From NCBI GenBank assembly GCA_963840035.1, contig CAWIXE010000002.1:64001-128000 (forward strand): a stretch of 64,000 bases of DNA. The letters run 5' to 3'. The notes below the pieces were generated by a model, which saw only the letters and a program-made list of their open reading frames with translations, was not told where the DNA came from and did not search any database. Shown piece by piece: positions 944 to 62,723 of the stretch; positions within the stretch are counted from its first letter, which is position 1; each line of letters opens with the position of its first letter. The position numbers and the translations under genes are program-made. Origin of the DNA: a candidate division FCPU426 bacterium (GTDB lineage: Bacteria; Oederibacteriota; PGYV01; Palsa-1178).

Positions 944-978
944 AATTGAAAATTGAAAATATAGAATTGAAAATATGG
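944..978. repeat. Heptamer tandem array (AATTGAA-type)
   Basis: aattgaa aattgaa aatatag aattgaa aatatgg. Confidence 0.7.
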
Positions 979-1187
979 TTATCCACCGCAACGTTTCTGC
1001 CTTTCAGGCGTTCTACTATTGTGCCCTTTTACACGTTTAACATGTTTGCAACGCTGTTTTGTCATGGAAAAACCTTTAAAATAAGGCTTTATTTAGCGCC
1101 AAACCAACGGAACTTATGGTGGCGGAATTTGTCTAAAATATGCAAGAAAAACGCTGAAAAGACCGATAAATAAAGGTGAAAATATTC

Positions 1188-1216
1188 TTGACAGTGTAAT
1201 TTATAAATGATATATT
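1188..1216 (+). promoter_or_regulatory. sigma70-type promoter
   Basis: TTGACA-17 nt-TATATT, 22 nt upstream of the ATG at 1239. Confidence 0.7.
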
Positions 1217-1238
1217 TTTTACATTAGAGAGGTGCTAT

Positions 1239-2183
1239 ATGAAAGTAAAAACATTAAAATTAACAGTTTTTACAGCGGTGTTACTGTCTGTATTCTGTTT
1301 ATCTTCATTTGCCGACCAGGGTACTACCTCTGCGGTTTTCTTAAAACTTGAGCAGGGTGCCAGGCCTATTTCCATGGGCGGCGCTTTTGTGGGAGCGGCG
1401 GATGACGTTAACGCCATTATGTATAATCCCGCGGGTTTAGCCCAGCTGCCTTCTTTTCAGTTAACCGTAATGCACACTATTTGGTTCGCTTCCATTTTTT
1501 ATGACTATGTCGCGGCAGCTTATCCGGCAGGCGAGATAGGCACATTCGGACTCGGAGTCGTTTATGTAAATTCGGGCGATATAAAAAGCTGGGACGAGAT
1601 TGGCACGGAACTTACCGCTTTCAGGGCAAGCGACTTAGGCATCAACCTTTCATACGGCACTAAAATAAACACCGAGTTATCACTCGGTGTTACCGTAAAA
1701 GTATTTAACGAATCCATCGCCGACGCGGGGGCTTTTGGCTTCGCGGCCGACCTTGGCGGAGTTTACAAGCTTCCGGTTAAGGATCTGCAGGCCGGTGTTT
1801 GCATACAGAACCTCGGGCCGAAGTTTGGTTTCGGAGAAGCGTTTCTTCTTCCCATAACCGTAAAACTCGGATTAAGCTACACCGGAATAAAGAACCTTAT
1901 GTTAAACCTCGATTACATTCAGCCCATAGAGACAAGGGGAATCATAGCGGCGGGCATGGAATACTGGTACAGGGACATTGTTGTCATAAGGCTCGGCTAC
2001 CAGTACCAGGGCGCTATAGACCCCAATGACCTTTACGATTACATCGCGAGCCCGGGCATACTCGCCGGATTTGTGGCGGGCGCGGGTATAAAGATCGATA
2101 TGTACGAAGTTGACTATGCGTACAGGCAGTACGGCGTTCTTGAAAGCACACACAGGATCGGGCTCACAGTAAAGTTTAAATAA
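1239..2183 (+). CDS. PorV/PorQ-family (UPF0164-like) outer-membrane beta-barrel protein
   Basis: Signal peptide; FLKLEQGARPISMGGAF...ADD...YNPAGL motif; C-terminal THRIGLTVKF. Confidence 0.85.
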   Translation: MKVKTLKLTVFTAVLLSVFCLSSFADQGTTSAVFLKLEQGARPISMGGAFVGAADDVNAIMYNPAGLAQLPSFQLTVMHTIWFASIFYDYVAAAYPAGEIGTFGLGVVYVNSGDIKSWDEIGTELTAFRASDLGINLSYGTKINTELSLGVTVKVFNESIADAGAFGFAADLGGVYKLPVKDLQAGVCIQNLGPKFGFGEAFLLPITVKLGLSYTGIKNLMLNLDYIQPIETRGIIAAGMEYWYRDIVVIRLGYQYQGAIDPNDLYDYIASPGILAGFVAGAGIKIDMYEVDYAYRQYGVLESTHRIGLTVKFK

Positions 2184-2581
2184 TGAAATCCTTAAAAGTA
2201 TCCACGTCAAAAAGGACGGAACTGGCCGATATCACGGCCGCGGTCCAAAAGGCCGTGGACGAGGAAGGGATAAGGAACGGAATTATTTTTTTATATGTGC
2301 CTCACACCACCGCGGCGCTAACGGTAAATGAAAACGCCGACCCGTCGGTTAAGAAGGACATCATTAAAAAATTAACCGCAATGATCCCGAAAGATGAAGA
2401 TTACGGGCACTCCGAAGGGAACTCGGATTCTCATATCAAATCCTCTCTTTTTGGAAACGAAATGTTTTTTTTCATAGAAAGCGGCAGGCTTGCGCTCGGC
2501 ACATGGCAGGGAATTTATTTCGCCGAGTTTGACGGGCCCAGGGACAGGCAGATATACATAAAATTCACCAGGGACTTGTAG
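2183..2581 (+). CDS. yjbQ: YjbQ / secondary thiamine-phosphate synthase family
   Basis: PHTTA, NENADP, H-x-EGNSDSHIKS and LGTWQGIYFAEFDGPR motifs. Confidence 0.9.
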   Translation: MKSLKVSTSKRTELADITAAVQKAVDEEGIRNGIIFLYVPHTTAALTVNENADPSVKKDIIKKLTAMIPKDEDYGHSEGNSDSHIKSSLFGNEMFFFIESGRLALGTWQGIYFAEFDGPRDRQIYIKFTRDL

Positions 2582-2617
2582 AAATAAAAGCAAGATAACG
2601 TATACCAGGAGGCAAAG

Positions 2618-3718
<1,101 letters not shown>

Positions 3719-3730
3719 AGGAGGATGTTT

Positions 3731-4742
3731 ATGAAAAAATCACTTTTACTTGTAGCGGTTCTTATCGTGGCGCTGGCGGAGCCTTTCCGCTGCGACTACT
3801 ACCACTGATACTCAGTTTGCCGGCGAGTCCATGTCAATCGGCGTAGGCGCAAGGCCGCTCGGCATGGGAGGCACTTTTGCCGCCATAGCCGACGACGCTT
3901 CCACTTCATACTGGAACGCGGCCGGCATGACAAACATACAGGGCGTCGAAGTGTCATCCGTGAAGCTTACAAAGATCAATGACCTGGATACGAAGTATTC
4001 ATACGTCAACCTTGTATACAACACCGGAGCATACGGAGCCATCGGGCTTGGCTGGTTAAGGCAGGCAATAGACGGCATTAACATTACTGACGCGCTCGGC
4101 GATTCAAAAGGCATCAAGGAAAACGCGGATAACGTAGTGTACATCGCGTACGCTTACCCTATAGTAAAAGGGTTTTCAGCAGGCGGATCAGTAAAGATAC
4201 TTATGGGAAACTACCCGGCATTAACTGACGGCGGAAACCTCGCCACCATAAACTATGGCGGATTTGGAGTGGACCTTGGAGTATTCTTTAAGGTCGGTGA
4301 TTTTGTCCCTGAAATGAAATGGCTGACCCTTGGAGTAAATGTGCAGGACGTATACACGTCGGTTACGTGGGACGCGGTACAGGGTTCAAGCACGATAACG
4401 GGCGGCGCGGAGACAGTCGGCTTAAACATGAAGCCTGGCGTCGCGTTAAGGTTCCCGATTCAGCAGTTTGAACTGATAGCTTCATCGGATATAGACACAA
4501 GGTACTCACAGATGATCATACACGCCGGCGGAGAAATATGGTGGAACAAGATGGTTGCCATACGCGGCGGTATCAAGAGCTGGGGCCCGATTGCAAACGG
4601 AGCGGGCGGAGACACACTTCAGCAGAAACCGGACTGGAGCTTAGGCGCTTCTGTCAGATGGTATTTCATAGGAGTTGACTTCGCGTATGTTTATAACGAA
4701 CTTACGCCTGTCCAGTATCTCTCAATAATCGGAAAGTTCTAA
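3731..4742 (+). pseudogene. Second PorV/PorQ-family barrel; apparent frameshift at ~3779 separates the signal peptide from the body (possible assembly error)
   Basis: GGAGG then ATG 3731 MKKSLLLVAVLIVALA; continues in the +1 frame as SLSAATTTTDTQFAGESMSIGVGARPLGMGG...YWNAAG; ends in GKF. Confidence 0.75.
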
Positions 4743-4830
4743 AAAAAGTATTGATAAAAATGCCGGGGACTGTTCCGGCGGTAAATAGAAAACGCTTTTT
4801 ATAAAAAAGTGGAAAACACATAAAACAGGG

Positions 4831-4862
4831 GATAGGAGAGAGGATTTTCTCTCCTATCTTTT
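4831..4862 (+). terminator. Terminator-like hairpin upstream of the GH94 gene
   Basis: gataggagag-8 nt-ctctcctatc followed by tttt. Confidence 0.55.
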
Positions 4863-4886
4863 GCCATCTAAATAGGAGGTTTTAGA

Positions 4887-7232
4887 ATGCGCTACGGATA
4901 TTTTGATGATAAAAACAGGGAATATGTTATTACTCGCCCGGACACCCCTCTGCCGTGGATTAATTACCTAGGAGTGGATACTTACTGCGGCCTTATGTCA
5001 AACACAGCCGGCGGATACAGCTTTTACAGGGACGCCGCGCACAGAAGGATACTGCGTTACAGGTATAATAACGTGCCGTCCGACAGGCCGGGACGCTATA
5101 TTTATGTCAGGGACAATAAGTCAAAAGATTACTGGTCAGCCACATGGCAGCCGGTAAATAAGGACCTGAAGAAATACAAGTATGAATGCCGTCACGGACT
5201 TTCATACACAAAGATTTCATCAGAGTACGCCGGCATTGCCACCGAGACATCATACTTCGTCCCGGTCGGCGCCTCGCATGAAGTCTGGCGCATCAAGGTT
5301 AAAAACAACACAAAAAAAGCCAGGTCACTCTCGCTTTTCACGTACGTCGAGTTCTGCCTCTGGGACGCGATGAACGATATGACAGATTATCAGTATAATT
5401 TAAATATCGCACAGACCGAGTTTAAAAATAACGCCATGTACCACCTGACACAGTATAACGTGCATAAAAGCAATTTCGCGTATTTCTGGTCGGACACAAA
5501 AGTCGCGAGCTATGACGGAGTAAGGCAGGATTTTGTCGGCCCATACAGGGGCGAGGCAAATCCGATTGCCGTTGAAAATGGAAAATGCTCCAACTCGCTC
5601 GCGGTAGGCTGGGCGCCGTTTGGCGGACTGAACATAAACGTATCGCTTAAGGCAAAGCAGGAAAAGGAAGTTACATTTGTCCTTGGATACGGCGAAGGCC
5701 TTGGCGTGGAAAAAGAAGTAATGGCAAGGTACAAGAAAAAAGGCGCGGTTGACGCGGCTTTAAAAGAGCTTGCCTCCCACTGGGACGAGCAGCTTGACAA
5801 ATACAAATGCGAAACACCTGACCCGGCGCTTAATTCCATGGTTAACATATGGAATCAGTACCAGTGCAAGACCACATTCAACTGGTCACGTTCAGCTTCG
5901 TATTATGAGGCAGGCGGAGAGCGCGGAATGGGATTCAGGGACTCCAACCAGGATACGCTCGGATTCGGCCACATGATACCGGTAAAAGTGCGTTCAAGGC
6001 TCATTGACATAGCTTCCGTGCAGTTCCCGGAAGGCCGCGCGCATCACGGTTATTCACCCCTTACAAAGAAGGGCAAAAATGAAGGCTTCGGCGACGACCA
6101 TCTCTGGCTTGTTCAGGCAGTGCATAATTACTGCAAGGAAACAGGCGATATGAACTTTTTAAATGAGCTCGTTCCGTTCAATGACGGTTCAAAAGCCAAG
6201 ATGTACGAGCACCTGCAGAAAGCCATTCAGTATTCATGGGATAACGTCGGATACCACGGGCTGCCGAAAGCCGGCAACGCCGACTGGAACGACTGCCTTA
6301 ACTTAAGCGGCCCGAAGGGCATGGGAGTATCGGTCATGATCGCGTGCCAGTTTGTAATGGGGGCGAATTATTTGGCTGAGCTCGCTGATAAATCAGGCAG
6401 GGTTCTTGATGTTGAGAAGTATAAAGAAATGGCTGAGGAAATGAAGAAAAGAATAAATGAAAAAGCATGGGACGGCGAGTGGTACATGAGGGCCTTTGAC
6501 GACAACGGCACCCCGGTGGGCACCAACGCCTCAAAAGAAGGCAAGATCTGGCTTGAGTCAAATACATGGGCCATCATGTCGGGCGTAGCTGAAGGCGAGC
6601 GCGCCATGACCACGCTTAACTCCATAAAGAAACACTTATCGACAAAGTACGGCATAGTCCTTTTCCAGCCGGCATTCACGGAATACCACCCGGAACTCGG
6701 GTATGTATCCGTATTCCCGGCGGGCTTAAAGGAAAACGCGGCCATATTCTGCCACACCAACCCGTGGGCGATGTGCTCCGAGGCCATGATGGGCAGGGGA
6801 GAGCAGGCGTTTGAATACTGGAAGACCATAGCGCCGGCGGCAAATAACGACATAGCTGACAAGCACTGGACAGAGCCGTATGTTTATTCCCAGATGATAG
6901 CCGGACGCGACCATAAGGATTTCGGGCAGGCAAAGAACAGCTGGCTGACAGGCACCGCGGCATGGAATTTTGTGGCTGCTTCGCAGTTCATACTCGGCGT
7001 CAGGCCGGATTTTGACGGATTGATCGTAGACCCGTGCATACCCAAAAAGTGGAAAGGTTTCACCGTGAAAAGGGTATGGAGGGGAACCACATATAACATC
7101 ACTGTTAAGAACGCGGCAGGCGTAAATAAAGGCGTAAAAGAAATGAAGGTTGACGGCAAGGTTGTAAAGGGAAACAAAGCGCCGATATTTAAGGATAAGA
7201 ACGAGCACACCGTAGAAGTGGTAATGGGATAA
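4887..7232 (+). CDS. GH94 glycoside phosphorylase, cellobiose-phosphorylase-like
   Basis: MRYGYFDD.NREYVIT, PWINYLG, RYRYNNVP, SRSASY, GMGFRDSNQD, ADWNDCL, KENAAIFCH, WLTGTAAW. Confidence 0.9.
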   Translation: MRYGYFDDKNREYVITRPDTPLPWINYLGVDTYCGLMSNTAGGYSFYRDAAHRRILRYRYNNVPSDRPGRYIYVRDNKSKDYWSATWQPVNKDLKKYKYECRHGLSYTKISSEYAGIATETSYFVPVGASHEVWRIKVKNNTKKARSLSLFTYVEFCLWDAMNDMTDYQYNLNIAQTEFKNNAMYHLTQYNVHKSNFAYFWSDTKVASYDGVRQDFVGPYRGEANPIAVENGKCSNSLAVGWAPFGGLNINVSLKAKQEKEVTFVLGYGEGLGVEKEVMARYKKKGAVDAALKELASHWDEQLDKYKCETPDPALNSMVNIWNQYQCKTTFNWSRSASYYEAGGERGMGFRDSNQDTLGFGHMIPVKVRSRLIDIASVQFPEGRAHHGYSPLTKKGKNEGFGDDHLWLVQAVHNYCKETGDMNFLNELVPFNDGSKAKMYEHLQKAIQYSWDNVGYHGLPKAGNADWNDCLNLSGPKGMGVSVMIACQFVMGANYLAELADKSGRVLDVEKYKEMAEEMKKRINEKAWDGEWYMRAFDDNGTPVGTNASKEGKIWLESNTWAIMSGVAEGERAMTTLNSIKKHLSTKYGIVLFQPAFTEYHPELGYVSVFPAGLKENAAIFCHTNPWAMCSEAMMGRGEQAFEYWKTIAPAANNDIADKHWTEPYVYSQMIAGRDHKDFGQAKNSWLTGTAAWNFVAASQFILGVRPDFDGLIVDPCIPKKWKGFTVKRVWRGTTYNITVKNAAGVNKGVKEMKVDGKVVKGNKAPIFKDKNEHTVEVVMG

Positions 7233-7238
7233 GGACGG

Positions 7239-7276
7239 ATTTTCAATTTTCAATTTTAAATTTTGAATTTTCAATT
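7239..7276. repeat. Heptamer tandem array (ATTTTCA-type)
   Basis: attttca attttca attttaa attttga attttca. Confidence 0.75.
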
Positions 7277-8879: not shown

Positions 8880-8948
8880 ATCAATTCGATTTGAGTTTTG
8901 AAATATGAGATAAACAATCCCGTTTCAAACTCCAAATAACGTCTTTTA

Positions 8949-8985: not shown

Positions 8986-9060
8986 GTCCCCATGGTCAAG
9001 AGGTTAAGACACCGCCCTTTCACGGCGGTATCGGGAGTTCGATTCTCCCTGGGGACGCCA
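8986..9060 (+). tRNA. tRNA-Glu(TTC)
   Basis: GTCCCCA/TGGGGAC acceptor stem; ccgcc-CTTTCAC-ggcgg anticodon arm; GTTCGATTC T-loop; encoded CCA. Confidence 0.97.
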
Positions 9061-9099
9061 AAAAAAATAGCCGGCTGAAGCCGGCTATTTTTTTTGGCG
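9056..9099 (+). terminator. Bidirectional terminator hairpin extending into the tRNA 3' end
   Basis: cgcc-A8-tagccggc-tgaa-gccggcta-T8-ggcg perfect inverted repeat. Confidence 0.85.
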
Positions 9100-9331
9100 A
9101 GAAAGGTGAGAGTAGAGAGGAGATAGGAGATAAACCAGGGACAATCGGCACCACTGTCGACTACCACTCAAACCCACCTTTCGGTCACCTATCTACTCTC
9201 TCCTATCTGAACGACTTTTCCTGCACTTCCGTTTTTGAAGTTGTTTCCTGATTTGTTTTATTGTAATATATCCGGAAGGGTAGGAAATAAAAACGATAAA
9301 CGGGGTCACCTTTCACCTATCTACTATCTGA
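9100..9331. repeat. Imperfect purine/pyrimidine periodic inverted repeat upstream of the four-helix-bundle gene
   Basis: gaaaggtgagagtagagaggagataggagata (9101-9132) vs cacctatctactctctcctatct (~9186-9208); related cacctttcacctatctactatct at ~9307-9329. Confidence 0.55.
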
Positions 9332-9371: not shown

Positions 9372-9722
9372 ATGGCATTCCTATTTGAGAATCTGATTGT
9401 GTACCAAAAGGCAGTAGATTTCGCCGAGAAAATCTCCAATCTGACCGACAACTTCCCGAAGGGGACCTACTACCTCGTCGACCAAGTCAATCGCGCCGCA
9501 TTATCCATCCCGCTCAACATAGCCGAAGGCAACGGCAAATTCACAGGCAACGACAAAAAGAACTTCTTCTTCATAGCCCGCGGCTCCACCCATGAATGTG
9601 TGCCTTTGCTTGAGATCTCCAGACGCAAGGGCTTTATATCCGAGTCAGAGTGTGCGAAATTAAGGGCGCAGCTGGAAGAGATTGCGAAAATGATATCAGG
9701 GATGGTGAAAAGATACGAGTGA
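9372..9722 (+). CDS. Four-helix-bundle protein (23S rRNA IVS protein / bAvd-like family)
   Basis: FENLIVYQKA...FPK...Y.LVDQVNRAALSIPLNIAEG...FFFIARGS..E signature. Confidence 0.9.
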   Translation: MAFLFENLIVYQKAVDFAEKISNLTDNFPKGTYYLVDQVNRAALSIPLNIAEGNGKFTGNDKKNFFFIARGSTHECVPLLEISRRKGFISESECAKLRAQLEEIAKMISGMVKRYE

Positions 9723-17021: not shown

Positions 17022-17102
17022 AAATTTACAATTGACAATTAATAGGGACAGGTTGACCCGTTGCCGGTTGAAATTGTAAATTGAAAATAGTAAATTGAAA
17101 AT
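17022..17102. repeat. Inverted pair of heptamer arrays between pilT and pilC
   Basis: aatttac aattgac aattaat ... tgaaat tgtaaat tgaaaat agtaaat tgaaaat. Confidence 0.65.
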
Positions 17103-34581: not shown

Positions 34582-34690
34582 GTCTAAAACCTTCGATAAT
34601 CGAGAATCGAAAATTAACCGTCTATACTCACCTTTGAGCGGAGGAGTCTTTTCGGGCGGTTAGCTTATTGATCGCGCTGATTTCAATACT

Positions 34691-34814: not shown

Positions 34815-34939
34815 ACTTAACTTAATCACAAATCCCATATCCCAAATCTCAAGGGAAGGGCTTAATTTATACTTAATCAGGAGACTTCACCTTTCTCCTG
34901 TCGACTCTCGACTTACTCCAAAATCCGCTCCGCGGATTT

Positions 34940-35112: not shown

Positions 35113-35238
35113 AATTACGAATTAATAATTACTAAGTTACTAAAGAAGGTGCCGCTTCGCGGTCTATTATAATAATGCGAGGAATGAAATGACGAGCATG
35201 TACCATGATTGGTAATTAGTAATTATTAATTTGTAATT
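35113..35238. repeat. Inverted pair of heptamer arrays (AATTACT-type) downstream of mnmG
   Basis: aattacg aattaat aattact aagttact ... tggtaat tagtaat tattaat ttgtaat. Confidence 0.7.
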
Positions 35239-35244
35239 TTCCTT

Positions 35245-42923: not shown

Positions 42924-42994
42924 AGCCCAGAGCCCAAAGCCCATAGCACAGGTGGTATGTTTTCCCTTGAGCTTTGGGCTCTGAGCTCTGGGCT
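42924..42994. repeat. Inverted pair of heptamer arrays (AGCCCAR-type)
   Basis: agcccag agcccaa agcccat agcacag ... ttgagct ttgggct ctgagct ctgggct. Confidence 0.85.
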
Positions 42995-43009
42995 CAAACC
43001 CGGGGTATT

Positions 43010-45031: not shown

Positions 45032-45101
45032 AGGGTAGAGGGTGGAGGGTAGGGTTCGAAGTTAATGTTGAACTTCGAATTTCGAACTCCGAACACCGAA
45101 C
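45032..45101. repeat. Two adjacent heptamer arrays of different unit sequence
   Basis: agggtag agggtgg agggtag; then ttcgaat ttcgaac tccgaac accgaac. Confidence 0.7.
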
Positions 45102-45111
45102 TGTTTTTTGG

Positions 45112-46725: not shown

Positions 46726-47203
46726 CCCGAAAATAATATTTGACAGGAAGAAACTTGTTTCCGCGGTTAAGAAACTTAAAAAATCCGGCAAAAAAGTCGT
46801 CTTTACGAACGGCTGTTATGACCTGCTTCACGTCGGCCATGTAAGGTTCTTAAAGGCGGCCAGGAAGTTAGGCGGCGCGCTGGTGCTTGCGTTAAACAGC
46901 GACGCTTCAGTGCGCAGGATAAAGGGCCCCAAAAGGCCGGTTACGCCCGAGAATGAAAGGGCAGAGGTAATGTCAGCGCTTTCCTGCGTTGATCTTATCA
47001 CGCTTTTTCACGAGGACGACCCGTTTAACATAATAAAAGATGTAGTTCCTGACGTGCTCGTAAAAGGCGGGGACTGGTCCCTTGATAAAATAATAGGCGC
47101 GGACATAGTAAAAGCCGCGGGCGGAAAAGTGAAGAACGTGCCGTATATAAAAGGAAAGAGCACGACGAACATAATAGCGAATGTGATAAAGTACTATAAA
47201 TAG
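46715..47203 (+). CDS. Heptose-1-phosphate adenylyltransferase (RfaE domain II), copy 2
   Basis: FTNGCYDLLHVGH, NSDASVR, PDVLVKGGDW, STT.II. Confidence 0.9.
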   Translation: MANSPKIIFDRKKLVSAVKKLKKSGKKVVFTNGCYDLLHVGHVRFLKAARKLGGALVLALNSDASVRRIKGPKRPVTPENERAEVMSALSCVDLITLFHEDDPFNIIKDVVPDVLVKGGDWSLDKIIGADIVKAAGGKVKNVPYIKGKSTTNIIANVIKYYK

Positions 47204-47250
47204 CCCAAAGCTCAAAGCCCAAGGTACGACTTGGGCTTTGGGCTCTGGGC
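47202..47250. repeat. Inverted pair of heptamer arrays (AGCCCAA-type)
   Basis: agcccaa agctcaa agcccaa ... ttgggct ttgggct ctgggc. Confidence 0.85.

Positions 47251-48002: not shown

Positions 48003-48004
<2 letters not shown>
47270..48004 (+). CDS. kdsB: CMP-Kdo synthetase
   Basis: IPAR..STRLPGK, SGTER, NIQGDEP, LYFSR, HIGLYAY, EKLEQLR. Confidence 0.95.
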
Positions 48005-49733
<1,729 letters not shown>

Positions 49734-51574: not shown

Positions 51575-52063
51575 GTGGAAAAGAAACACAGGCTTGATGA
51601 ATCTGTTTATATAGGCAAACTGCGCGCAACTTTTACGGTTTGCGTTGAAGACAGGCAGCCGCTGTTTAAAGATAAGGCCGTCGTAAACGTCATGCTGCAA
51701 ATCCTGAAACAAATCTTTGAAAAATATCATTTGCTTAACTGGATTTATACTTTCATGCCGGACCATCTGCATCTGATATTTGAAGGCGTCAAAGATAATT
51801 CAAACCTGCTGAAGGCTATGCATATGTTTAAACAGAAAGCTGGCTATTGGTTGAAGATAAATAAGCCCGGATTTAAACTCCAAAAAGATTTTTATGACCG
51901 CGTTCACCGGCAGGATGTAGTACTGGTTTTACAGATGCTTTATATCGCGGAAAACCCAGTAAGGTCCGGTTTGGTGAAAGAGTGGCAGGAATTTGAAAAT
52001 ACAGGGTCGTTAAGTTTTGATTTAAACGTTGAGATGCAGTCAGCGGATGTTTTAAAGCCGTGA
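51575..52063 (+). CDS. REP-associated tyrosine transposase (RAYT, IS200-like Y1 HUH)
   Basis: MPDHLH (HUH), FKQ, Q.DFYD...R, YIAENPVRSGLV; flanked by GTAG REPs. Confidence 0.9.
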   Translation: MEKKHRLDESVYIGKLRATFTVCVEDRQPLFKDKAVVNVMLQILKQIFEKYHLLNWIYTFMPDHLHLIFEGVKDNSNLLKAMHMFKQKAGYWLKINKPGFKLQKDFYDRVHRQDVVLVLQMLYIAENPVRSGLVKEWQEFENTGSLSFDLNVEMQSADVLKP

Positions 52064-52336: not shown

Positions 52337-52760
52337 ATGACTGAAACTGATAAATATACGGCTTTTATCGATGGCGCTTCTAGCGGGAATCCCGGGCATG
52401 CCGGCATTGGCGTGGTTATATATAAGGGAAAGGACCAGATACTTATGGAGTCCAAGTATATCGGCGAGGCCACAAATAACGTGGCTGAGTACTCGGCGCT
52501 TTTACACCTTCTGGATATCGCCACCAAGCATAAGATCAAGCACCTTGATATTTTCTCCGACAGCGAACTTCTGGTAAAGAGGCTTCTCCGGCGAGTATAA
52601 GGTCAGGGACGAGAAACTTCAGGAGTTTGTAAAGAACGCCATCGCCCACAGGAAGACCATCAAGTATACGGTCACCCATATCCCCAGGGAAAAGAACAAG
52701 GAAGCTGACAAGCTCTCCAAAGAAGGATCCAAAAGGGGAGGCAACATCAGAAATGTATGA
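52337..52760 (+). pseudogene. rnhA: Ribonuclease HI-family protein, apparent frameshift at ~52582 (possible assembly error)
   Basis: DGASSGNPG, TNNVAEY, SDSELLVK, then +1 frame SGEYKVRD...HIPREKNKEADKLS. Confidence 0.85.
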
Positions 52761-52932: not shown

Positions 52933-54280
52933 GAGCAGCGGCGCGGCGCGCCTGGCGGCCTCAGGTTTCCAAATCTGGGACATCTTTGAAGAGGAATCAA
53001 TAGTAAACACCATTGTCTTTGAAGACGGCCGGGTGGACAAGATATCCGCCGGGACAGACTATGGAATCGGCGTCCGCGGCGTCAGGGACTATAAGACATT
53101 TTACGGGTACACAAACGACCCGCAGGCATTATATAAGACCATAGAAACCATAAGCGCCGGGGCAGCGGCGGGGAAAAAGGAAGCTGATTTCAATTTAATT
53201 AAAGCCGGATTTGCCAATAAAGTGTCCATCATGCCTGACACTGTAACCCCGGAGCAGAAGATAAGCCTTCTAAAAAAGATAAATGACAGGGCAAGGTCGG
53301 CCGGGCCCGGCGTCAAGCAGGTGACGGCCACATACCTTGAAAGGATACAGTCGGTTGAGATCGTAAATGACCTCGGCCGCATGATAAAGGATAAAAGGGT
53401 TTATTCGACCTGCGCGATAATGGTCATAGCGGAGAAAAACGGCAGGATAGAAACGGGCTATACGGTTTTATCGGGCCACGCGGGTTTTGAGATCTTTGAA
53501 GACAAAGAAGTGCTGAAAAAAACAGACGAAGCCTCGGGCCTGGCCTTAAGGCTCCTGGACGCTGATAAAAAAATTACCGGCGAAATGACCGCCGTAATCT
53601 CCTGCAGGGCGGGCGGCACTATGATTCACGAAGCTGTCGGACATTCACTTGAGGCGGACCTCGTGCAGAAAGGCGTGTCGCAGTACCGCGGGAAAAAAGG
53701 GTCAAAAGTGGCCTCTGATGTAATCACGGTAATTGACGACGCGACCATACAGGGCAGGCGCGGTTCTTTCTCGTTTGATGACGAAGGCACGCCGTCGGAG
53801 AAAACAGTACTCATAGAAAAAGGCATTCTTAAGAATTTCATGTATGACAGGGAAACGGCGTCAAAAGACAAAGTGGATTCAACGGGAAACGGAAGAAGGG
53901 AATCATATAAATTCAAGCCGATACCCAGGATGCGCAATACCATGATTGCCTCCGGCAAAGGCTCTGCCGAGGACATTATTAAAGATACAAAGAGCGGTAT
54001 TTTTGTTGTGAAGATGGGCGGAGGCCAGGTAAACACGGTCACCGGCGAGTTTGTCTTTGAGGTAAAGGACGGATACATGATTGAAGGCGGGAAGATAACA
54101 TCTCCAGTGCGCGGCGCGACGCTTATGGGGACCGGGACGGAAGTGTTAAATACCATAGACGCGGTTTGTGATGACATCGGTTTTGACGCGGGTACCTGCG
54201 GCAAGGACGGACAGGGAGTGCCTGTTGCGGACGCCCAGCCGACGCTGAGGATACCTAAGATTTTGGTGGGAAGTAAATAA
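52922..54280 (+). CDS. tldD: TldD/PmbA-family metalloprotease, TldD type
   Basis: HEAVGHSLEAD, DDEG, STGNGRR, PRMRNT, CGKDGQ.VPV. Confidence 0.9.
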   Translation: MLDKSSGAARLAASGFQIWDIFEEESIVNTIVFEDGRVDKISAGTDYGIGVRGVRDYKTFYGYTNDPQALYKTIETISAGAAAGKKEADFNLIKAGFANKVSIMPDTVTPEQKISLLKKINDRARSAGPGVKQVTATYLERIQSVEIVNDLGRMIKDKRVYSTCAIMVIAEKNGRIETGYTVLSGHAGFEIFEDKEVLKKTDEASGLALRLLDADKKITGEMTAVISCRAGGTMIHEAVGHSLEADLVQKGVSQYRGKKGSKVASDVITVIDDATIQGRRGSFSFDDEGTPSEKTVLIEKGILKNFMYDRETASKDKVDSTGNGRRESYKFKPIPRMRNTMIASGKGSAEDIIKDTKSGIFVVKMGGGQVNTVTGEFVFEVKDGYMIEGGKITSPVRGATLMGTGTEVLNTIDAVCDDIGFDAGTCGKDGQGVPVADAQPTLRIPKILVGSK

Positions 54281-54315
54281 ATTCTGAATTCTGGATTCTA
54301 AATTTTGGATTCAAA
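54281..54315. repeat. Heptamer array (ATTCTGR-type)
   Basis: attctga attctgg attctaa attttgg attcaaa. Confidence 0.7.
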
Positions 54316-55329: not shown

Positions 55330-56196
55330 ATGAAAAAACTGATGATGTCGGCGCTGCTTTTAACGGCAATATGCGCGTTTGCCTGCTGCGCCGGAACTTC
55401 AGAGACGCTTTCCTCCGCCGTTAAACCTGATCAGGCGCCTGCCGCGGTTTCAGATGCTGTTAAGCCCGCGCAAACACCTGCCGTTGTTTCGGCAGCTGTA
55501 AAGCCGGCTCAAACGCAGGTTGTTGTTTCAACCGGAATTAAGCCGTCACTTACGCCGGACGCGGCTGATGATTCCTATCTGTATTATCCCGCCCATGTGG
55601 GCAATATCCTGTATCTTAAGGCGCGGAAAAAGGCCGAACCGGATAAGGAAGTATTTGTTAAGGCTGAAATCATAAAGATTGAAAAAAAGGACGACGGCGA
55701 TTATTTCTATTTTTACGGACCCCAGGTAAATGTGCGCTATTTGATCGGTATTGATAAAGACGGGGTATCAATGAGGGTGATAAAGTACCCGTTCCCGTTT
55801 TTTGATATTTCCATCGAAGTGGATATAAAGCCGAAGATGCCCATAATAAAGTTCCCGCTTAAAGCCGGGGCAAAGTGGCACTATGAAGGCCAGGGCGAGG
55901 CCCACCTTTTATTCATACCCATCACCAGGAACTTAAAGGCTGATTTTGAAATAGTCGAGAGGGTCACAAGGAAAACAGAGGCAGGCGACATAGACTGCTA
56001 CCACCTGAAAGTACTGCTTGACTCGGGCGACGGTAAGGGCGTAACCACCGAGGAGTACTGGTACGCGAAAGGCATAGGCTACGCCATAGCGGATACAAGC
56101 GGGCATGTGGCGTCGATAGTCGGATATAAGATTTTTGACGATACAACCGGCAAATGGAATGAGAAGATACCTGCAAACGTGGAATTATACAAGTAG
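55330..56196 (+). CDS. Exported hypothetical protein with 13-aa (S.AVKPAQ.PA.V) repeats and a beta-rich C-terminal domain
   Basis: Signal peptide; 3-4 repeats; TEAG...CY...WYAKGIG. Confidence 0.7.
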   Translation: MKKLMMSALLLTAICAFACCAGTSETLSSAVKPDQAPAAVSDAVKPAQTPAVVSAAVKPAQTQVVVSTGIKPSLTPDAADDSYLYYPAHVGNILYLKARKKAEPDKEVFVKAEIIKIEKKDDGDYFYFYGPQVNVRYLIGIDKDGVSMRVIKYPFPFFDISIEVDIKPKMPIIKFPLKAGAKWHYEGQGEAHLLFIPITRNLKADFEIVERVTRKTEAGDIDCYHLKVLLDSGDGKGVTTEEYWYAKGIGYAIADTSGHVASIVGYKIFDDTTGKWNEKIPANVELYK

Positions 56197-56226
56197 TCGC
56201 ACCCTCTACGTTTTATCGGGGTGCGT
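56193..56226. repeat. Solo REP-B whose GTAG supplies the stop codon of the upstream gene
   Basis: gtagtcgcaccctctacgttttatcggggtgcg. Confidence 0.8.
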
Positions 56227-56258
56227 ACGTAGGTTGGAAAAAAACAAAGAGGTTTAAC

Positions 56259-57152: not shown

Positions 57153-57156
57153 TACA

Positions 57157-57247
57157 ATTGAAGATAGCAGATTGAAGATTGCGGATTAATGGACATGGCA
57201 ATGTTGTAAGGTTTTTAATCCGCAATCTGCAATCAACAATCTTCAAT
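57157..57247. repeat. Inverted pair of heptamer arrays (ATTGMAG-type)
   Basis: attgaag atagcag attgaag attgcgg attaa ... ttaatccgc aatctgc aatcaac aatcttc aat; 29 of 33 positions complementary. Confidence 0.85.
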
Positions 57248-57265
57248 ACCAACGGAGGTTATGAT

Positions 57266-58270: not shown

Positions 58271-58765
58271 TTGAAAATTTTAAAGCGCATTAACTACAGC
58301 CTATACAACATACAAAAAGTCGTGGTTGTCATACTGTTCCTGGCGTTGCTGGGTATTTCCGCGCTGCAGATCATACTGCGGCTTGTGTTCCACTCGGGCA
58401 TCCCTAACGCCGAAACCATGATGCGCTATCTTGTCATGTGGGTGGCGTTCCTCGGCGCTTCGCTGGCGGCTTATAAGGGACGCCACATAAACCTCGACGT
58501 GGTTTCCAGGTCGCTTAAAAAAATAAACAAGAACCTTGTTAAGCTCATAGTCAGCATAGCTTCCTTTCTAATTCTGGCATTTCTGCTGAAAGCATCCGTG
58601 GAATTCATTTTAAATGAGATGCCTGACAGCCCGGCTGTTTTCTTTGTCCCGGTCTGGGTCCTTGAGACCATAATCCCGCTGATGTTCTTTTTCATGACCC
58701 TTGTTTACCTGCAGGGGATCATTGATTCAATTGGGGCGATGATCAGGGAGAAAAAGAAAAAATGA
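58271..58765 (+). CDS. dctQ: TRAP small permease DctQ
   Basis: 4 TM; QIILR, W.AFLGASLA...HI.LD. Confidence 0.85.
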   Translation: MKILKRINYSLYNIQKVVVVILFLALLGISALQIILRLVFHSGIPNAETMMRYLVMWVAFLGASLAAYKGRHINLDVVSRSLKKINKNLVKLIVSIASFLILAFLLKASVEFILNEMPDSPAVFFVPVWVLETIIPLMFFFMTLVYLQGIIDSIGAMIREKKKK

Positions 58766-60039
58766 TACCCATAATCGTAGGGCTCGCGTTAATATCGCTC
58801 GCGTTAATAGGCACCCCGCTGTTTGTTGTATTCGGCGGGCTCGCCGTGGTGCTTTTTGCCATAGCGGGAATAGACACATCGGTTGTCATCATAGAGATAA
58901 GCAAGATAGGCACGAACCCCACGCTCATCGCCATACCCTTATTTACATTTGCCGGATACCTGCTCGCTGAGTCAGGCGCACCGGTCAGGCTCATCGCGCT
59001 CGCGCGCTCGCTTGTGGGATGGTTTAAGGGCGGCACAGCCATAGTGACACTGATAGCCTGCGCGTTCTTTACCTCTTTTACCGGCGTTTCAGGTGTGACC
59101 ATAATAGCCCTGGGCGGATTGCTTTTGCCCATGTTGATTAAGGACAAATACACGGAAAAATTCTCCCTCGGGCTTGTGACCACGGCCGGAAGCATAGGAC
59201 TTTTATTTCCGCCAAGCCTGCTGCTCATCCTCTACGGCGTTCTGGCAAATGTCCCGATATCAAAACTTTTTATAGCCGGCATCATACCGGGAGCCATCCT
59301 CATACTGCTCTTTTCTTTTTATTGCATTAAAGAGGGGCTGGTAGCGGCTGAAGTGGAGCCGTTTTCATTCAAGAAACTGTTCTCTGCCATAAAAGGCGCG
59401 GCCTGGGAAATACCGCTGCCGTTTGTCGTGTTATGGGGCATATACAGCGGGACTTTTACAGCGTCCGAAGCTGCCATAATAACCGCGCTTTACGCCTTCG
59501 TGGTGGAAGTGCTCATATTAAAGGATTTATCCATAAAAAAAGACGTCCCGCGCATCATCAGGTCATCCATGATAGTGGTGGGCGGAATATTTGTCATACT
59601 CGGGTCAGCAATGGGGCTGACGAACTATTTGGTCGACGAGCAGGTGCCCATGAAGATTCTCGCGTGGATGAAGATTTACATCACGCAGAAATGGCTCTTC
59701 CTGCTGATGCTTAATATATTCCTTATCGTTGTCGGCGCCGTGCTTGATGTTTTCTCGGCGCTCATAGTGGTCCTGCCGCTCATGGTGCCGATTGCAAGGG
59801 ATTTCGGGATAGACCCGGTGCACATGGCCATGATATTCCTCGTAAATCTTGAGATAGGGTATAACGCGCCGCCGGCAGGCATAAATCTTTTCATCGCCAG
59901 TTTCAGGTTCAGGAAACCGGTAATGTCGCTCGCTAAACACACACTTCCGTTCATTGTCATAATGTTCGGGGTGCTCATGCTTATAACATATGTCCCCGAC
60001 ATAAGCCTCTTCCTGGTGAAACTGTTAAAAGTTGAATAA
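58762..60039 (+). CDS. dctM: TRAP large permease DctM
   Basis: AIPLFTFAG, GS.G.L.PPS, FTASEAA, GIDPVH, PP.G.NLF. Confidence 0.9.
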   Translation: MIPIIVGLALISLALIGTPLFVVFGGLAVVLFAIAGIDTSVVIIEISKIGTNPTLIAIPLFTFAGYLLAESGAPVRLIALARSLVGWFKGGTAIVTLIACAFFTSFTGVSGVTIIALGGLLLPMLIKDKYTEKFSLGLVTTAGSIGLLFPPSLLLILYGVLANVPISKLFIAGIIPGAILILLFSFYCIKEGLVAAEVEPFSFKKLFSAIKGAAWEIPLPFVVLWGIYSGTFTASEAAIITALYAFVVEVLILKDLSIKKDVPRIIRSSMIVVGGIFVILGSAMGLTNYLVDEQVPMKILAWMKIYITQKWLFLLMLNIFLIVVGAVLDVFSALIVVLPLMVPIARDFGIDPVHMAMIFLVNLEIGYNAPPAGINLFIASFRFRKPVMSLAKHTLPFIVIMFGVLMLITYVPDISLFLVKLLKVE

Positions 60040-60065
60040 GTTTTTATAATATATAAGGGGGATTT

Positions 60066-60797
60066 ATGAAAAAAATCATTATGCCTTTGTTATTTGCTGT
60101 TCTATGTTTGTCCGGGATGTTATTAATACAGGGATGCCACAAAAAAGCGCCTAACACGCCAATAATGCCGACTTCAACTGAAACAGCCACACCGACAATA
60201 ACTACCTCTAAGACAAATACACAGACGTATACGGCAACTCCGTCCATAACACCCACATATACCGCCACGCCGACTTCCACAGCCACGCAGACTGTGACGC
60301 AGACGATAACGCCTGACGCATCGTCAAAAGCTTACGGATTTGAGGATAATACACAGCAGGGTTGGGGTAAGAATAATTCGCTCGGGGCTGCATCTTATGT
60401 TGCAGTGACAGATACCACCGTTTTCAGCGGAACATACGGCCTTGAAGTCAAATGCGCGTATGACTTAAGCAACGACAGGATAGGCATAAAAAGATCCTTC
60501 ACAGGGTATCCGGTGTACTTAAGGAATAAAACAGTTGACGCTAAAATATTCCTGACGGCTGAGATGGCGGTTGTGGCAAACACATACATGCCTGAGCTTA
60601 CGCTTGTGGGTTATGACGGTACAGTATACCCGGCTATATCACCGGGAACATATTTTGTGGCCGGGTGGAACTCCATGTCGCTTTCGGTGCCTGATACTGC
60701 CGAATACGAGATGATAGGGGAAGTAAGGATAGCCCTGAAAAATGACATGGCTTCAACATACAGTAATTTTACCTTTATTGACGACATTTCCTGGTAA
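60066..60797 (+). CDS. Lipoprotein with Thr-rich linker and carbohydrate-binding-like beta-sandwich
   Basis: IQGC lipobox; TxT repeats; YGFED...GW...FIDDISW. Confidence 0.7.
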   Translation: MKKIIMPLLFAVLCLSGMLLIQGCHKKAPNTPIMPTSTETATPTITTSKTNTQTYTATPSITPTYTATPTSTATQTVTQTITPDASSKAYGFEDNTQQGWGKNNSLGAASYVAVTDTTVFSGTYGLEVKCAYDLSNDRIGIKRSFTGYPVYLRNKTVDAKIFLTAEMAVVANTYMPELTLVGYDGTVYPAISPGTYFVAGWNSMSLSVPDTAEYEMIGEVRIALKNDMASTYSNFTFIDDISW

Positions 60798-60810
60798 CAG
60801 TGGCTTTAAA

Positions 60811-61296
60811 ATGATATACGTCATCACAGGCGTTTTAGGGTCGGGCAAGTCTACCATAGGAAAAATGATATCTGATAAGCTGAAAATACCATTCTATGAC
60901 GCTGATGAATACATAACCCATGAAGACCGCAAGAAGCTTTCCAAAGGCATCACCATGACCGAAAAAGAAATGAAAGACCTCATGTTTGCCTTACGCGCCA
61001 TAGTGGACAGGGAGTTGGCCAGGGGCGGAAGCGCGGTTATAGCCTGCACCGCGCTTAAGGAACAATACAGAAAACTGTTAATGCACGACCACGGGAATAT
61101 GAAGCTGATTTTTTTAAAGGGCGATAAAAGCGTTATTGAAAAACGACTTAAGCATAATAAGACACACCATAACGCGAGCTGGGAGATAGTGGAGAGCCAA
61201 TTTAAGATACTCGAAGAGCCCAAAAACGCGCAGGTTTTCGACATAACCATTACCGCGGAAAAGATAGTGGATGAGATAATAAAGCAGGGAAAATAA
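60811..61296 (+). CDS. gntK: Gluconokinase (GntK/IdnK family)
   Basis: GVLGSGKSTIG, DAD, IACTALK..YR, SQF..LEEP. Confidence 0.8.
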   Translation: MIYVITGVLGSGKSTIGKMISDKLKIPFYDADEYITHEDRKKLSKGITMTEKEMKDLMFALRAIVDRELARGGSAVIACTALKEQYRKLLMHDHGNMKLIFLKGDKSVIEKRLKHNKTHHNASWEIVESQFKILEEPKNAQVFDITITAEKIVDEIIKQGK

Positions 61297-61376
61297 ACCG
61301 TTTTTACGTTCAATACGGTCCGGACAAACCTTGGCTTTTCGATTTATACAAACAACATATTATGATATTATCTTGA

Positions 61377-61494
61377 CTGTCATTGCGAGGAGCCGATTTT
61401 GGATTATGGCGACGAAGCAATCCCTGCTGTTTTTAAGACTTAAAGCGAGATTGCTTCGTCGGAAAAGAAATAAAGCGCCTCCTCGCAATGACAG
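61377..61494. repeat. Nested-palindrome miniature element (GTCATTGCGAG type)
   Basis: Outer IR ctgtcattgcgaggag/ctcctcgcaatgacag; inner IR cgacgaagcaatc/gattgcttcgtcg. Confidence 0.8.
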
Positions 61495-61533
61495 ATAAAA
61501 TACAATATGAACCGATATAAAAAGGAGACTTAC

Positions 61534-62685
61534 ATGCAATACAGGCCATTTGGAAATGACGGTTGGAAAGTATCCGCCCTTAGTTTCGGCGCCATGAGGC
61601 TGCCGATGATGCCCGGCGTGGATAAAGTGGACGAGGCGGAAGCCATAAGGATAATGCGCTACGGAATTGATAAGGGCATCAATTACATTGATACCGCCTA
61701 TTTTTACCACAACGGTATGAGCGAAGAGATTGTGGGAAAGACTTTAAAGGACGGTTACAGGGCGAAAGTCAGGATAGCGACCAAGCTGCCGGTCGGGCTT
61801 ATGAAAGAAGAGGCTGATTTTGACAAGTTCCTGAACCTTCAGTTAAAAAGGCTGGATGTGGACTACATTGATTATTACCTTTTCCACGGCATCGGCGACG
61901 GCGGGCTTGCGGCGATGAGGAAATTTGACCTGTTTAAGAAAATGGAAGACGCGAAAAAGGCGGGCAAAATAAAGCACATAGGATTTTCATTCCATGACAA
62001 GGCAGAGTCGTTCATCCGTGTTATTGACAGCTATGACAAATGGGAATTCTGCCAGATACAGTATAACTACATGGACACAGACAATCAGGCGGGGACAGCA
62101 GGATTAAAATACGCGGCTTCAAAGAACATCCCGGTAGTGGTTATGGAGCCGCTGCTCGGAGGAAGGCTCGCAAGGCCGCCTAAAAAAATAGCCGATATGT
62201 TCAGCGAATTCATCATACAGAGGACGCCTGCTGAGTGGGCGCTGCAGTGGATTTGGAACCACCCGGAAGTATCAACCATATTAAGCGGCATGTCTAACTT
62301 TGAGCAGGTGGAGGAAAATTTAAAATCAGCCCACAGGTCCAGGCCTGACCAGTTAAGCGGCGGGGAAAAGACCCTAATATTCATGGCCAAGGGAGAATTC
62401 CAGAAACGCACCGTAATCCCCTGCACCAAATGCGAATACTGCATGCCATGCCCGCAGGGAGTGGCAATACCGAGGAACTTTGAATTATATAATGAAGGCG
62501 CGGTATACGGCGACCCGGGCTCGCCAAGGTACACATATAAGCTGTGGATGAAACCTGAAGACAGGGCGTCAGCCTGCACCGGCTGTAAAGTGTGCGAGGA
62601 AAAATGTCCGCAGAAGATAAACATAAGCGAATGGATGCCGAAAGTTAACGATATAATGACAGGCAAGGCGGAGTATCCGGAGTAA
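61534..62685 (+). CDS. Aldo/keto reductase with C-terminal 4Fe-4S dicluster
   Basis: FGAMRLP, INYIDTAY.YH, MEPL.GG, CTKCEYCMPCP, CTGCKVCEEKCP. Confidence 0.9.
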   Translation: MQYRPFGNDGWKVSALSFGAMRLPMMPGVDKVDEAEAIRIMRYGIDKGINYIDTAYFYHNGMSEEIVGKTLKDGYRAKVRIATKLPVGLMKEEADFDKFLNLQLKRLDVDYIDYYLFHGIGDGGLAAMRKFDLFKKMEDAKKAGKIKHIGFSFHDKAESFIRVIDSYDKWEFCQIQYNYMDTDNQAGTAGLKYAASKNIPVVVMEPLLGGRLARPPKKIADMFSEFIIQRTPAEWALQWIWNHPEVSTILSGMSNFEQVEENLKSAHRSRPDQLSGGEKTLIFMAKGEFQKRTVIPCTKCEYCMPCPQGVAIPRNFELYNEGAVYGDPGSPRYTYKLWMKPEDRASACTGCKVCEEKCPQKINISEWMPKVNDIMTGKAEYPE

Positions 62686-62689
62686 GGGC

Positions 62690-62723
62690 AATTAACAATT
62701 TACAATTAAGAATTAACAATTAT
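62690..62723. repeat. Heptamer array (AATTWAC-type)
   Basis: aattaac aatttac aattaag aattaac aattat. Confidence 0.7.

What the first reader, a model, noticed from the sequence alone, without database searches (positions are those of the whole stretch)
944..62723. Window-wide family of 7-bp-periodic intergenic arrays and hairpins: period conserved, unit sequence not
Seen: at least 15 short intergenic gaps carry 3-5 tandem imperfect heptamers (944, 7239, 8949, 17022, ~34826, 35113, 38453, 40395, 42924, 45032, 47202, 48003, 54281, 57157, 62690). Many are two inverted arrays that can fold into a long stem (e.g. 57157-57247, 29 of 33 positions paired). At least 7 unrelated unit sequences occur (AATTGAA, AGCCCAA, TCCNGTC, ATTGAAG, ATTCTGA, TTCGAAC, GGGATAT). 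They often begin within a few nt of a stop codon and lie inside conserved operons (pilT/pilC, kdsB/pyrG, tatT/dctP). Known: cyanobacterial STRRs are heptameric, but those are a few fixed sequences. Inference: a shared period with divergent sequence points to one mechanism that reads or creates the periodicity, for example empty sites of a small cassette element or RNA-processing stems bound by an oligomeric protein.
Basis: partly seen in the sequence, partly recalled or inferred. Interest (0 to 1): 0.8.

Follow-up and report, generated by a model that had tools for sequence, protein, structure and literature searches.

The report
Five-unit repeat arms of pentamer cassettes
About 830 short repeat arrays between the genes of this bacterium, typically five conserved triplets spaced 7 bases apart and often paired as hairpins right behind a stop codon, match the arms that flank a small gene family whose solved members are five-subunit rings, so they are likely that ring's binding sites, which would explain the long-puzzling excess of 7-base repeats in bacteria.

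Summary

- **Units share a grammar:** a fixed triplet recurs every 7 nt, capped at five copies (AAT runs: 121 of four, 382 of five, 11 of six). Neighbouring spacers avoid identity, unlike slippage.
- **Arrangement:** 507 of 836 have an inverted partner; hairpins start at stop codons; no target duplication.
- **Linked gene:** such arms flank four-helix-bundle genes (TIGR02436, Avd-like; solved homologues have five chains) here and at 61 of 79 loci from many phyla. Array density tracks gene number over 41 genomes (rho 0.65).
- **Period follows the protein:** one clade has 8-nt arms, another 9-nt; a 9-nt family here also has five cores.

Best reading: gene-less copies of an IVS-like cassette whose arms are five-site ligands of the pentamer. 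Binding and mode of spread are untested.

Nine literature searches found no such account. This scan reported the gene–heptamer link on other DNA before (81 notes).

The parts
944..974 (+). single arm, AATTGAA family (second-arm orientation), 31 nt
7239..7276 (+). single arm, ATTTTCA family (first-arm orientation), six ATT triplets, starts 6 nt after a stop codon
8948..8978 (+). arm of the AATCCCA/TTGGGAT family just before a tRNA gene (8986-9057); degenerate partner near 8905-8935
9099..9329 (+). GAGAGTA / TCACCTA hairpin (9099-9132 with about 9183-9210) plus an extra arm at 9306-9329, in the leader of the four-helix-bundle gene; same arrays and gene behind glgA in G003, G006, G034
9372..9722 (+). 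four-helix-bundle gene (TIGR02436; 23S-IVS-protein/Avd-like), 116 aa; belongs to a clade with arms upstream only
17022..17102 (.). hairpin in the pilT-pilC gap (arms 17022-17040 and 17071-17102); absent from the 6 family relatives with this gap
34593..34614 (+). arm, TCGAAAA family
34824..34852 (+). arm, AATCACA/AATCCCA family, between two tRNA genes
35113..35239 (.). hairpin, AATTACT family, next to the mnmG stop codon
38452..38484 (+). arm, AATTACT family, at the rlmN stop codon
40395..40429 (+). arm, GACAGGA/TCCTGTC family (second-arm orientation) before gmhB
42924..42995 (.). hairpin, AGCCCAA family
45032..45102 (.). GAGGGTA arm followed by a GAACTTC/GAACTCC arm before gmhA
47202..47250 (.). 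hairpin, AGCCCAA family, first unit overlapping the rfaE stop codon; other units or no array at this gap in relatives
48003..48094 (.). hairpin, AATTTTC/AATTGAA family, kdsB-pyrG gap; first arm has five ATT triplets
54280..54312 (+). arm, AATTCTG family, at the tldD stop codon
57157..57247 (.). hairpin, ATTGAAG/AATCTGC family, before dctP; 29 of 33 positions pair
62689..62722 (+). arm, CAATTAA family

Best explanation
The arrays are the gene-less, dispersed arms of a small cassette in which a four-helix-bundle (23S-IVS-protein/Avd-like) gene lies between two inverted arrays, and each arm is likely a five-site binding strip for the protein's predicted pentameric ring, one conserved triplet per subunit.

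Shown here: the five-triplet anatomy; family-fixed polarity; anchoring at stop codons; association with the gene across phyla; a period (7, 8 or 9 nt) that follows the protein clade; gain, loss and replacement of arms at orthologous gaps; no target duplication.

Inferred: (1) This genome's proteins form pentamers like their solved homologues. (2) The ring wraps the arm as RNA, as the arm leaves the ribosome-free zone behind a stop codon, in the manner of TRAP on its triplet repeats (TRAP is recalled, not from a call), or through periodic flipped-out bases as Avd does. (3) Recognition by the ring is what keeps triplets and number fixed while spacers drift. (4) Arm pairs spread as non-autonomous copies, most likely by recombination primed by the first unit's match to a stop-codon-like site, since no reverse transcriptase and no target duplication were found. 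Step 4 is the weakest.
For: FIVE-UNIT CAP. In-register triplet runs at spacing 7 number 2661, 1068, 962 and 38 for 3, 4, 5 and 6 copies (both strands; one arm can count several times). AAT alone gives 265, 121, 382 and 11. Spacing-6 and spacing-8 controls fall steadily. Lengths of 31-32 nt hold 268 of 836 arrays, and geometric simulations through the same detector do not give this shape. A separate 9-nt family has five in-register NYY triplets: 30, 30, 29, 29 and 30 of 30 arms, with flanking slots at 15 and 7. So the count, not the length, is kept.

NOT SLIPPAGE, BUT COPIED. Among 190 five-ATT arms, 0 are perfect (6.1 expected) and adjacent identical spacers number 66 against 115.5 +/- 7. Identical whole arms occur in 158 pairs against 61 +/- 15. 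Polarity is fixed: AATTTTC comes first in 42 of 44 hairpins.

GENE LINK. 4 of 8 genes here sit between pairing arms. One is a roughly 550-bp insert between a dihydroorotase-like gene and carA (names recalled from motifs), where 7 relatives have short gaps. Of 79 loci from many phyla, 61 have an adjacent period-7 array, 47 on both sides and 49 inverted; distant flanks have one in 13. Upstream arms share a polarised A-G-T-N-N-H-N profile (information 3.51 bits; 2.28 +/- 0.16 permuted; 2.86 +/- 0.07 random strand). Across 41 genomes rho is 0.65, and the 12 genomes without the gene have at most 5.7 pattern matches per Mb.

PROTEIN-ARM CO-VARIATION. Mantel rho 0.144, p = 0.001, n = 44, with near-identical units in different phyla. 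One clade has 8-nt arms: 7 of 7 genomes with it match an 8-periodic five-core pattern, against 6 of 34 without. Another clade has five 9-nt units (L032, L035).

STRUCTURE. Sequence and fold match 2GSC and 2RLD (5 chains each); the fold also matches Avd at TM 0.79. Avd's five protomers bind an RNA stem-loop through flipped-out bases (bioRxiv 10.1101/2023.10.23.563531, passages). The Coxiella 23S IVS has tandem heptamers in its 5' region (PMC4990558, passages).

STOP ANCHORING. 25 of 35 hairpins in gaps with over 100 nt of slack start within 10 nt of the stop (3.0 expected). In close relatives the first unit overlaps or supplies the stop codon.
Against: - No binding was tested.
- No gene was found at the named orthologous gaps, and only 2 of 12 gaps that are filled in relatives carry arms here (background 25%).
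- The cap is not universal: G012 has arrays of 10-45 units; Xanthomonas and Nostoc repeats prefer four units (PMC4692102, discussion section); Coxiella has 2-3 plus one degenerate unit; the AGCCCAA and ACAGGAG families here mostly measure 27 nt or less.
- Several large unit families here (AATTACT, AGCCCAA, AATCACA) flank none of the 8 genes, and this genome's 9-nt-clade gene has arms of another pattern than its 9-nt family.
- At C1:780744 the arms flank the gene in the order opposite to the family's empty hairpins.
- 34 of 74 genes in relatives and 18 of 79 distant loci show no period-7 flank; some of these are 8- or 9-periodic.
- G034 has 4 genes and 3 pattern matches.
- Genome-level tests use related genomes and overstate significance, and the 8-nt pattern was derived from that clade's own arms.
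- RNA-level evidence is thin: G:U bias is absent, and the sense strand folds better in only 100 of 160 hairpins.
- Co-variation could be mere co-inheritance of gene and arms.
Confidence: 0.6

Rival explanations
1. The arms are DNA-level ends of a miniature mobile element (MITE- or REP-like). The pentamer, or an unknown partner enzyme, binds them as DNA and pairs the two ends for excision and insertion; hairpin folding in RNA is incidental.
For: Arms are stereotyped and no closer to their own partner than to other family members' partners. Polarity is family-fixed. There is no G:U bias. Arms are nested or replaced at the same gap in relatives about 88-90% identical. Gene and unit travel together across phyla.
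Against: No target-site duplication at k = 3-8 among 190 hairpins. Loops are mostly not homologous within a family (60 of 761 homology links share a family, 5.6% expected). The protein has no known catalytic fold. The window's REP-associated transposase has its own GTAG repeats without heptamers. Stop-codon anchoring in long gaps points to the transcript.
Confidence: 0.2
2. The hairpins are host-useful RNA stems (RNase III cleavage, termination or stabilisation of operon transcripts), as in ORF-bearing rRNA intervening sequences; the repeats are just an easy way to build a 30-bp stem.
For: 507 of 836 arrays have an inverted partner within 150 nt. RNase III is present. The Coxiella IVS stem is cut by RNase III at the first heptamer (PMC4990558, passages). 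Hairpins sit between stop codon and ribosome-binding site.
Against: 329 of 836 arrays lack a close partner. Arms do not co-evolve. G:U versus A:C is 96:80. Orthologous gaps mostly do without them. This reading does not explain five cores or the period-protein link.
Confidence: 0.12
3. They are ordinary simple-sequence repeats made by polymerase slippage, with a 7-nt bias (the hypothesis quoted in PMC4692102), and linked to the small gene only by chance or co-inheritance.
For: G012 has long, expanding arrays, and length differs between G012 and G023 at one site. A near-perfect five-unit 9-mer lies elsewhere in this genome.
Against: Hard cap at five, no perfect arms, and depletion of adjacent identical units. 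Shared triplet and polarity across phyla. Near absence in genomes without the gene. 8- and 9-nt periods follow protein clades.
Confidence: 0.08

Closest known systems
ORF-bearing 23S rRNA intervening sequence (Coxiella burnetii helix-45 IVS with S23p; PMC4990558, passages read; Leptospira IVS as cited there)
   Same: Same protein family; gene in the loop of a roughly 30-bp terminal inverted repeat; tandem heptamers in the 5' part; sporadic distribution.
   Different: Here the element lies between protein genes, not in rRNA: the single 23S gene spans 3022 nt with no four-helix-bundle match. It occurs as about 830 mostly gene-less arms in many unit families. RNase III excision is untested.
Intergenic heptameric repeats of Xanthomonas (GGGAATC) and Nostoc (GGGGA(C/T)T), and cyanobacterial STRRs (PMC4692102, passages and discussion read; STRR unit sequences otherwise recalled)
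   Same: 7-nt period, intergenic, near ORF ends, often as inverted pairs, preferred copy number, function unknown.
   Different: 133 consensus units with a shared triplet grammar, mostly not G-rich, so no quadruplex reading; mode of five cores; linked to a gene family, which the passages I read do not mention.
DGR accessory protein Avd and its RNA stem-loop (bioRxiv 10.1101/2023.10.23.563531, passages read)
   Same: Same fold (TM 0.79 to 8UB7); pentamer; all five protomers contact one RNA element through flipped-out bases.
   Different: No RVT_1 match in this genome; 5-9% identity; ligand proposed here is a five-fold periodic arm, not an 11-bp stem-loop.
REP sequences with RAYT, and MITEs (definitions recalled)
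   Same: Hundreds of intergenic hairpins near stop codons, in families, with a few gene-bearing copies.
   Different: No GTAG end, no target duplication, no conserved interior; the cognate gene is not a nuclease or transposase family.
TRAP binding to 11 triplet repeats (recalled, not from a call)
   Same: Proposed logic: one triplet per subunit of a ring, with free spacers.
   Different: Unrelated fold; five sites with 4-6-nt spacers; the analogy is untested.

Membership tests
ORF-bearing 23S rRNA IVS | encodes an S23p / four-helix-bundle protein | tested here: met
   8 TIGR02436 matches, one at window 9372-9722; similar to 2GSC
ORF-bearing 23S rRNA IVS | ORF enclosed by terminal inverted repeats | tested here: met
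   4 of 8 genes in the genome; not the window's gene, whose arms are upstream only; 49 of 79 distant loci
ORF-bearing 23S rRNA IVS | located in an rRNA helix | tested here: not met
   23S gene C2:157878-160899 holds none of the 8 genes; arrays are between protein and tRNA genes
ORF-bearing 23S rRNA IVS | excised by RNase III without religation | not testable with these tools
   RNase III gene present; no RNA holder listed
MITE | terminal inverted repeats in families of fixed polarity | tested here: met
MITE | target-site duplication | tested here: not met
   k = 3, 4, 5, 6, 8: 123, 39, 16, 2, 0 of 190 against null 117, 43, 12.5, 3.6, 0.25
MITE | cognate transposase with the same ends | tested here: inconclusive
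   genes found inside arm pairs were four-helix-bundle or ordinary host genes, plus one IS30-like fragment recognised from memory; no genome-wide transposase search was made
REP / RAYT | GT(A/G)G-tailed palindromes flanking a RAYT | tested here: not met
   RAYT at 51575-52063 is flanked by GTAG palindromes with no heptamer array
slippage-derived simple sequence repeat | adjacent units more alike than distant ones; tailing length distribution | tested here: not met
   but G012 shows long tails
cyanobacterial STRR / Xanthomonas GGGAATC repeats | a few fixed heptamer sequences | tested here: not met
   133 canonical units, top family 139 of 836
diversity-generating retroelement | reverse transcriptase with template and variable repeats | tested here: not met
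   no PF00078 match in a 98%-complete genome; TR/VR not searched

The most novel reading that the evidence does not exclude
An undescribed class of selfish element: a pentameric ring protein with a built-in ruler reads five triplets at a clade-specific 7-, 8- or 9-nt spacing, and licenses enzyme-less copies of its own binding arms to spread to the ends of hundreds of host genes. rRNA intervening sequences and cyanobacterial and Xanthomonas heptamer repeats would be special cases, and DGR Avd a domesticated member. In this genome it would coat about 30% of intergenic gaps with a protein-addressable RNA tag.
Probability: 0.35. Interest if true: 0.9.

Novelty: new variant of a known kind. Interest (0 to 1): 0.74.

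Why it matters
Two old puzzles become one bench-testable claim. The first is the unexplained excess of heptameric repeats in bacterial intergenic DNA, which PMC4692102 says still lacks a function. The second is the unknown role of the very large four-helix-bundle / 23S-IVS protein family. This genome supplies exact ligands (a 31-nt arm of five ATT triplets, a 39-nt arm of five NYY triplets), and its relatives supply natural 8-nt variants with their own protein clade. A simple binding matrix can therefore confirm or kill the model. If it holds, it gives a natural ring-ruler code for RNA or DNA recognition and a likely ancestor of the DGR Avd-RNA interaction.

Tried and rejected
- GxxExxY (TIGR04256) as a second cargo family: no match in this genome.
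- Reverse transcriptase: none.
- Rfam: only 3 tRNAs in the window.
- RAYT as mobiliser: it has its own REPs.
- Target duplications: none.
- G:U asymmetry: not significant.
- Arm co-evolution: none.
- Conserved loops: only partial, by eye, in the AATTACT and AATCACA families.
- Arms bracketing genes rather than gaps: adjacent gaps share a family in 67 of 586 (11%, against 5.6% for random pairs). This is weak.
- Other small genes inside arm pairs were ordinary host genes.
- DGR-type adenine-only variation: judged by eye, not supported, not formally tested.
- Fixed arm length rather than fixed number: suggested by four GAGRY cores in the 9-nt family (28 of 31 runs), rejected when five NYY slots were found.
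- A specificity region in the protein: no alignment window stood out (best rho about 0.15).
- Sequencing runs: no RNA holder listed. The one DNA run covered the stretch thinly and bridged no hairpin informatively.
- No complex prediction was run: five copies exceed the tool, and the homologues are already solved.
- Rows dropped: L107 (same place as L039); L038 (own genome); genes under 80 codons matched or with short flanks.
- Literature: searches returned nothing; others returned no paper stating the gene-arm rule, judged from listings and five papers' passages. Mrazek 2007, Ralph and McClelland 1993 and Elhai 2008 were not held and may bear on novelty; most subscription journals are not searched. 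No supplements were opened.


Full report
OBSERVATION. The window is C2:64001-128000 of a 3.46-Mb, 47% GC genome. The listed arrays are present. All 17 gaps tested beat their own shuffles at lag 7, and the 57157 hairpin pairs at 29 of 33 positions. With genes called by my own codon model, intergenic DNA peaks at lags 7, 14 and 21 (0.3125 against 0.268 shuffled; coding 0.241). There are 836 intergenic period-7 arrays, 69 coding ones, 5-82 for other periods and 8-13 in shuffles. 589 of 2020 gaps carry one, and 507 of 836 have an inverted partner within 150 nt against 47 in a control.

ANATOMY OF AN ARM. The 133 unit types share a grammar: 672 of 836 contain R-R-Y-Y (43% expected). The commonest arm is five ATT triplets with 4-nt spacers, 31 nt, with sharp ends in unrelated flanks. 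Triplet runs at spacing 7 stop at five (AAT: 265, 121, 382, 11 runs of 3, 4, 5, 6), whereas spacings 6 and 8 fall steadily. Among 190 such arms none is a perfect repeat (6.1 expected), neighbouring spacers are identical less often than chance (66 against 115.5), and whole arms recur more often than chance (158 pairs against 61). A 9-nt family of 30 arms also has five in-register triplets.

ARRANGEMENT. Each family has a fixed first arm (AATTTTC first in 42 of 44 hairpins). The first-arm form lies at stop codons and the second-arm form near starts. Hairpins begin within 10 nt of the stop even in long gaps (25 of 35, 3.0 expected; 18 of 24, 8.1 expected), and there is no target duplication. Arms resemble their own partner no more than other members' partners. 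Loops are mostly unrelated and hold terminator- and promoter-like sequence, tRNAs or other palindromes.

THE LINKED GENE. The window holds a TIGR02436 four-helix-bundle gene at 9372-9722, one of 8 in the genome. Four lie between arms that pair across the gene; the window's copy and two close paralogs have arrays upstream only. The protein matches 2GSC and 2RLD, both five-chain entries. Its model (pLDDT 95.8) matches them at TM 0.78-0.87 and Avd at 0.79. In 79 loci from many phyla (80 returned, one dropped as a duplicate), 61 have an adjacent period-7 array, 47 on both sides and 49 inverted, against 13 for distant flanks; lengths again peak at 30-32 nt. Upstream arms share a polarised A-G-T profile, and similar proteins carry similar units across phyla. 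Over 41 related genomes, gene number and array density correlate at rho 0.65 (kin are not independent). One exception, G022, turned out to be rich in 8-periodic arrays (170 matches); G025 has only 6; G034 remains unexplained. All 7 genomes with the 8-nt protein clade match an 8-periodic pattern, against 6 of 34 without it.

ORTHOLOGOUS GAPS. At rfaE-kdsB, four of eight family members have hairpins of four different units and four have none. The pilT-pilC hairpin is in 1 of 7 genomes; at tatT-dctP the hairpin is only here, and G010 has a single array of another unit. None of these gaps holds the gene in any genome examined. A filled site of this genome (C2:519.6-520.1 kb) is a short gap in all 7 family relatives. 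Of 74 genes in relatives, 19 mapped to 12 gaps here, of which 2 carry arms (background 25%). In a trio of close relatives the first unit overlaps or supplies the stop codon, the same gap holds different arm families, and arms nest. Turnover is therefore fast, and empties are not simply emptied old sites.

HOW IT LIKELY WORKS. Five cores, free spacers, a clade-specific period and a family with five-chain structures point to one triplet per subunit (inference). RNA is the likelier ligand because of stop anchoring, the rRNA-borne members and Avd, whose five protomers grip flipped-out RNA bases (bioRxiv 10.1101/2023.10.23.563531, passages). Direct RNA evidence is absent. Spread without reverse transcriptase or target duplication is best guessed as recombination through the first unit at stop-like sites. 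This is the weakest step.

EVIDENCE AGAINST. Long uncapped arrays in G012; unit families with no cognate gene here; one reversed cassette; many family genes without period-7 flanks; co-inheritance as an alternative to recognition.

COMPARISON. The nearest known thing is the S23p-bearing 23S IVS. The Coxiella paper notes tandem heptamers and RNase III cleavage (PMC4990558, passages), but the rRNA location is not met here. Heptameric repeats of Xanthomonas and Nostoc are described with function unknown (PMC4692102, passages and discussion). PMC10053308 (passages) supports the PF05635-Avd likeness. PMC3936711 and bioRxiv 10.1101/2024.02.27.582315 place the gene in cas loci and rRNA inserts; the passages seen mention no arms. 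MITE, REP, slippage-repeat and DGR membership each fail a tested feature. Nine searches found no statement of the rule; four look-ups for three older papers failed.

EARLIER NOTES AND VERDICT. The scan's own index holds 81 notes on the gene-heptamer link in other genomes, some with the five-unit idea. They are not independent evidence, and I had formed the link and the five-core reading before reading them. Verdict: real, surprising and directly testable; mechanism inferred.

Noticed in passing
window:52336-52750: RNase HI-like reading frame (name recalled from its motif) broken near 52584; a contig of run X1 lacks one base there and differs at two neighbours, so it may be an assembly error.
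   Followed up: partly
window:50766-52190: REP-associated tyrosine transposase (51575-52063) with its own GTAG-tailed palindromes on both sides and around a neighbouring 169-aa ORF; a similar repeat at about 56200-56235.
   Followed up: partly
window:49733-49970: Small ORF of about 72 codons between pyrG and kdsA, overlapping the pyrG stop; a similar ORF follows kdsB in several relatives.
   Followed up: no
G000 C1:621846-623230, C2:1156338-1156445 and about 20 other gaps: 9-nt-periodic hairpin family (TCTCAATGA / TGAGATCAT), five cores per arm; none in the window.
   Followed up: yes
G000 C2:219140-219900: Four-helix-bundle gene flanked by longer repeated units of about 32 and 64 nt with a GGCTCAAG core, in inverted arrangement.
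   Followed up: partly
G000 C2:1487617-1487947, C3:90415-90717, C1:672959-673213: A conserved roughly 130-nt palindromic element (GTCATTGCGAG ... CTCGCAATGAC) nested inside heptamer hairpin loops.
   Followed up: no
L061-L080 (G012): Arms expanded to 10-45 units in one relative, and coexisting 7- and 8-nt families.
   Followed up: partly
L269:2566-2971 (G023) and L268 (G022): Partial duplications of tRNA gene ends flanking tRNA genes, with shared spacer sequence.
   Followed up: no
window:28270-28360 and 55438-55514: In-frame coding tandem repeats of 15/30 and 39 nt.
   Followed up: no
window:41470-47203: Two split rfaE kinase / adenylyltransferase gene pairs in one LPS-core cluster.
   Followed up: no
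G000 C2:1030911-1030956: Five near-perfect 9-nt units directly behind a stop codon, a unit type outside the main 9-nt family.
   Followed up: partly
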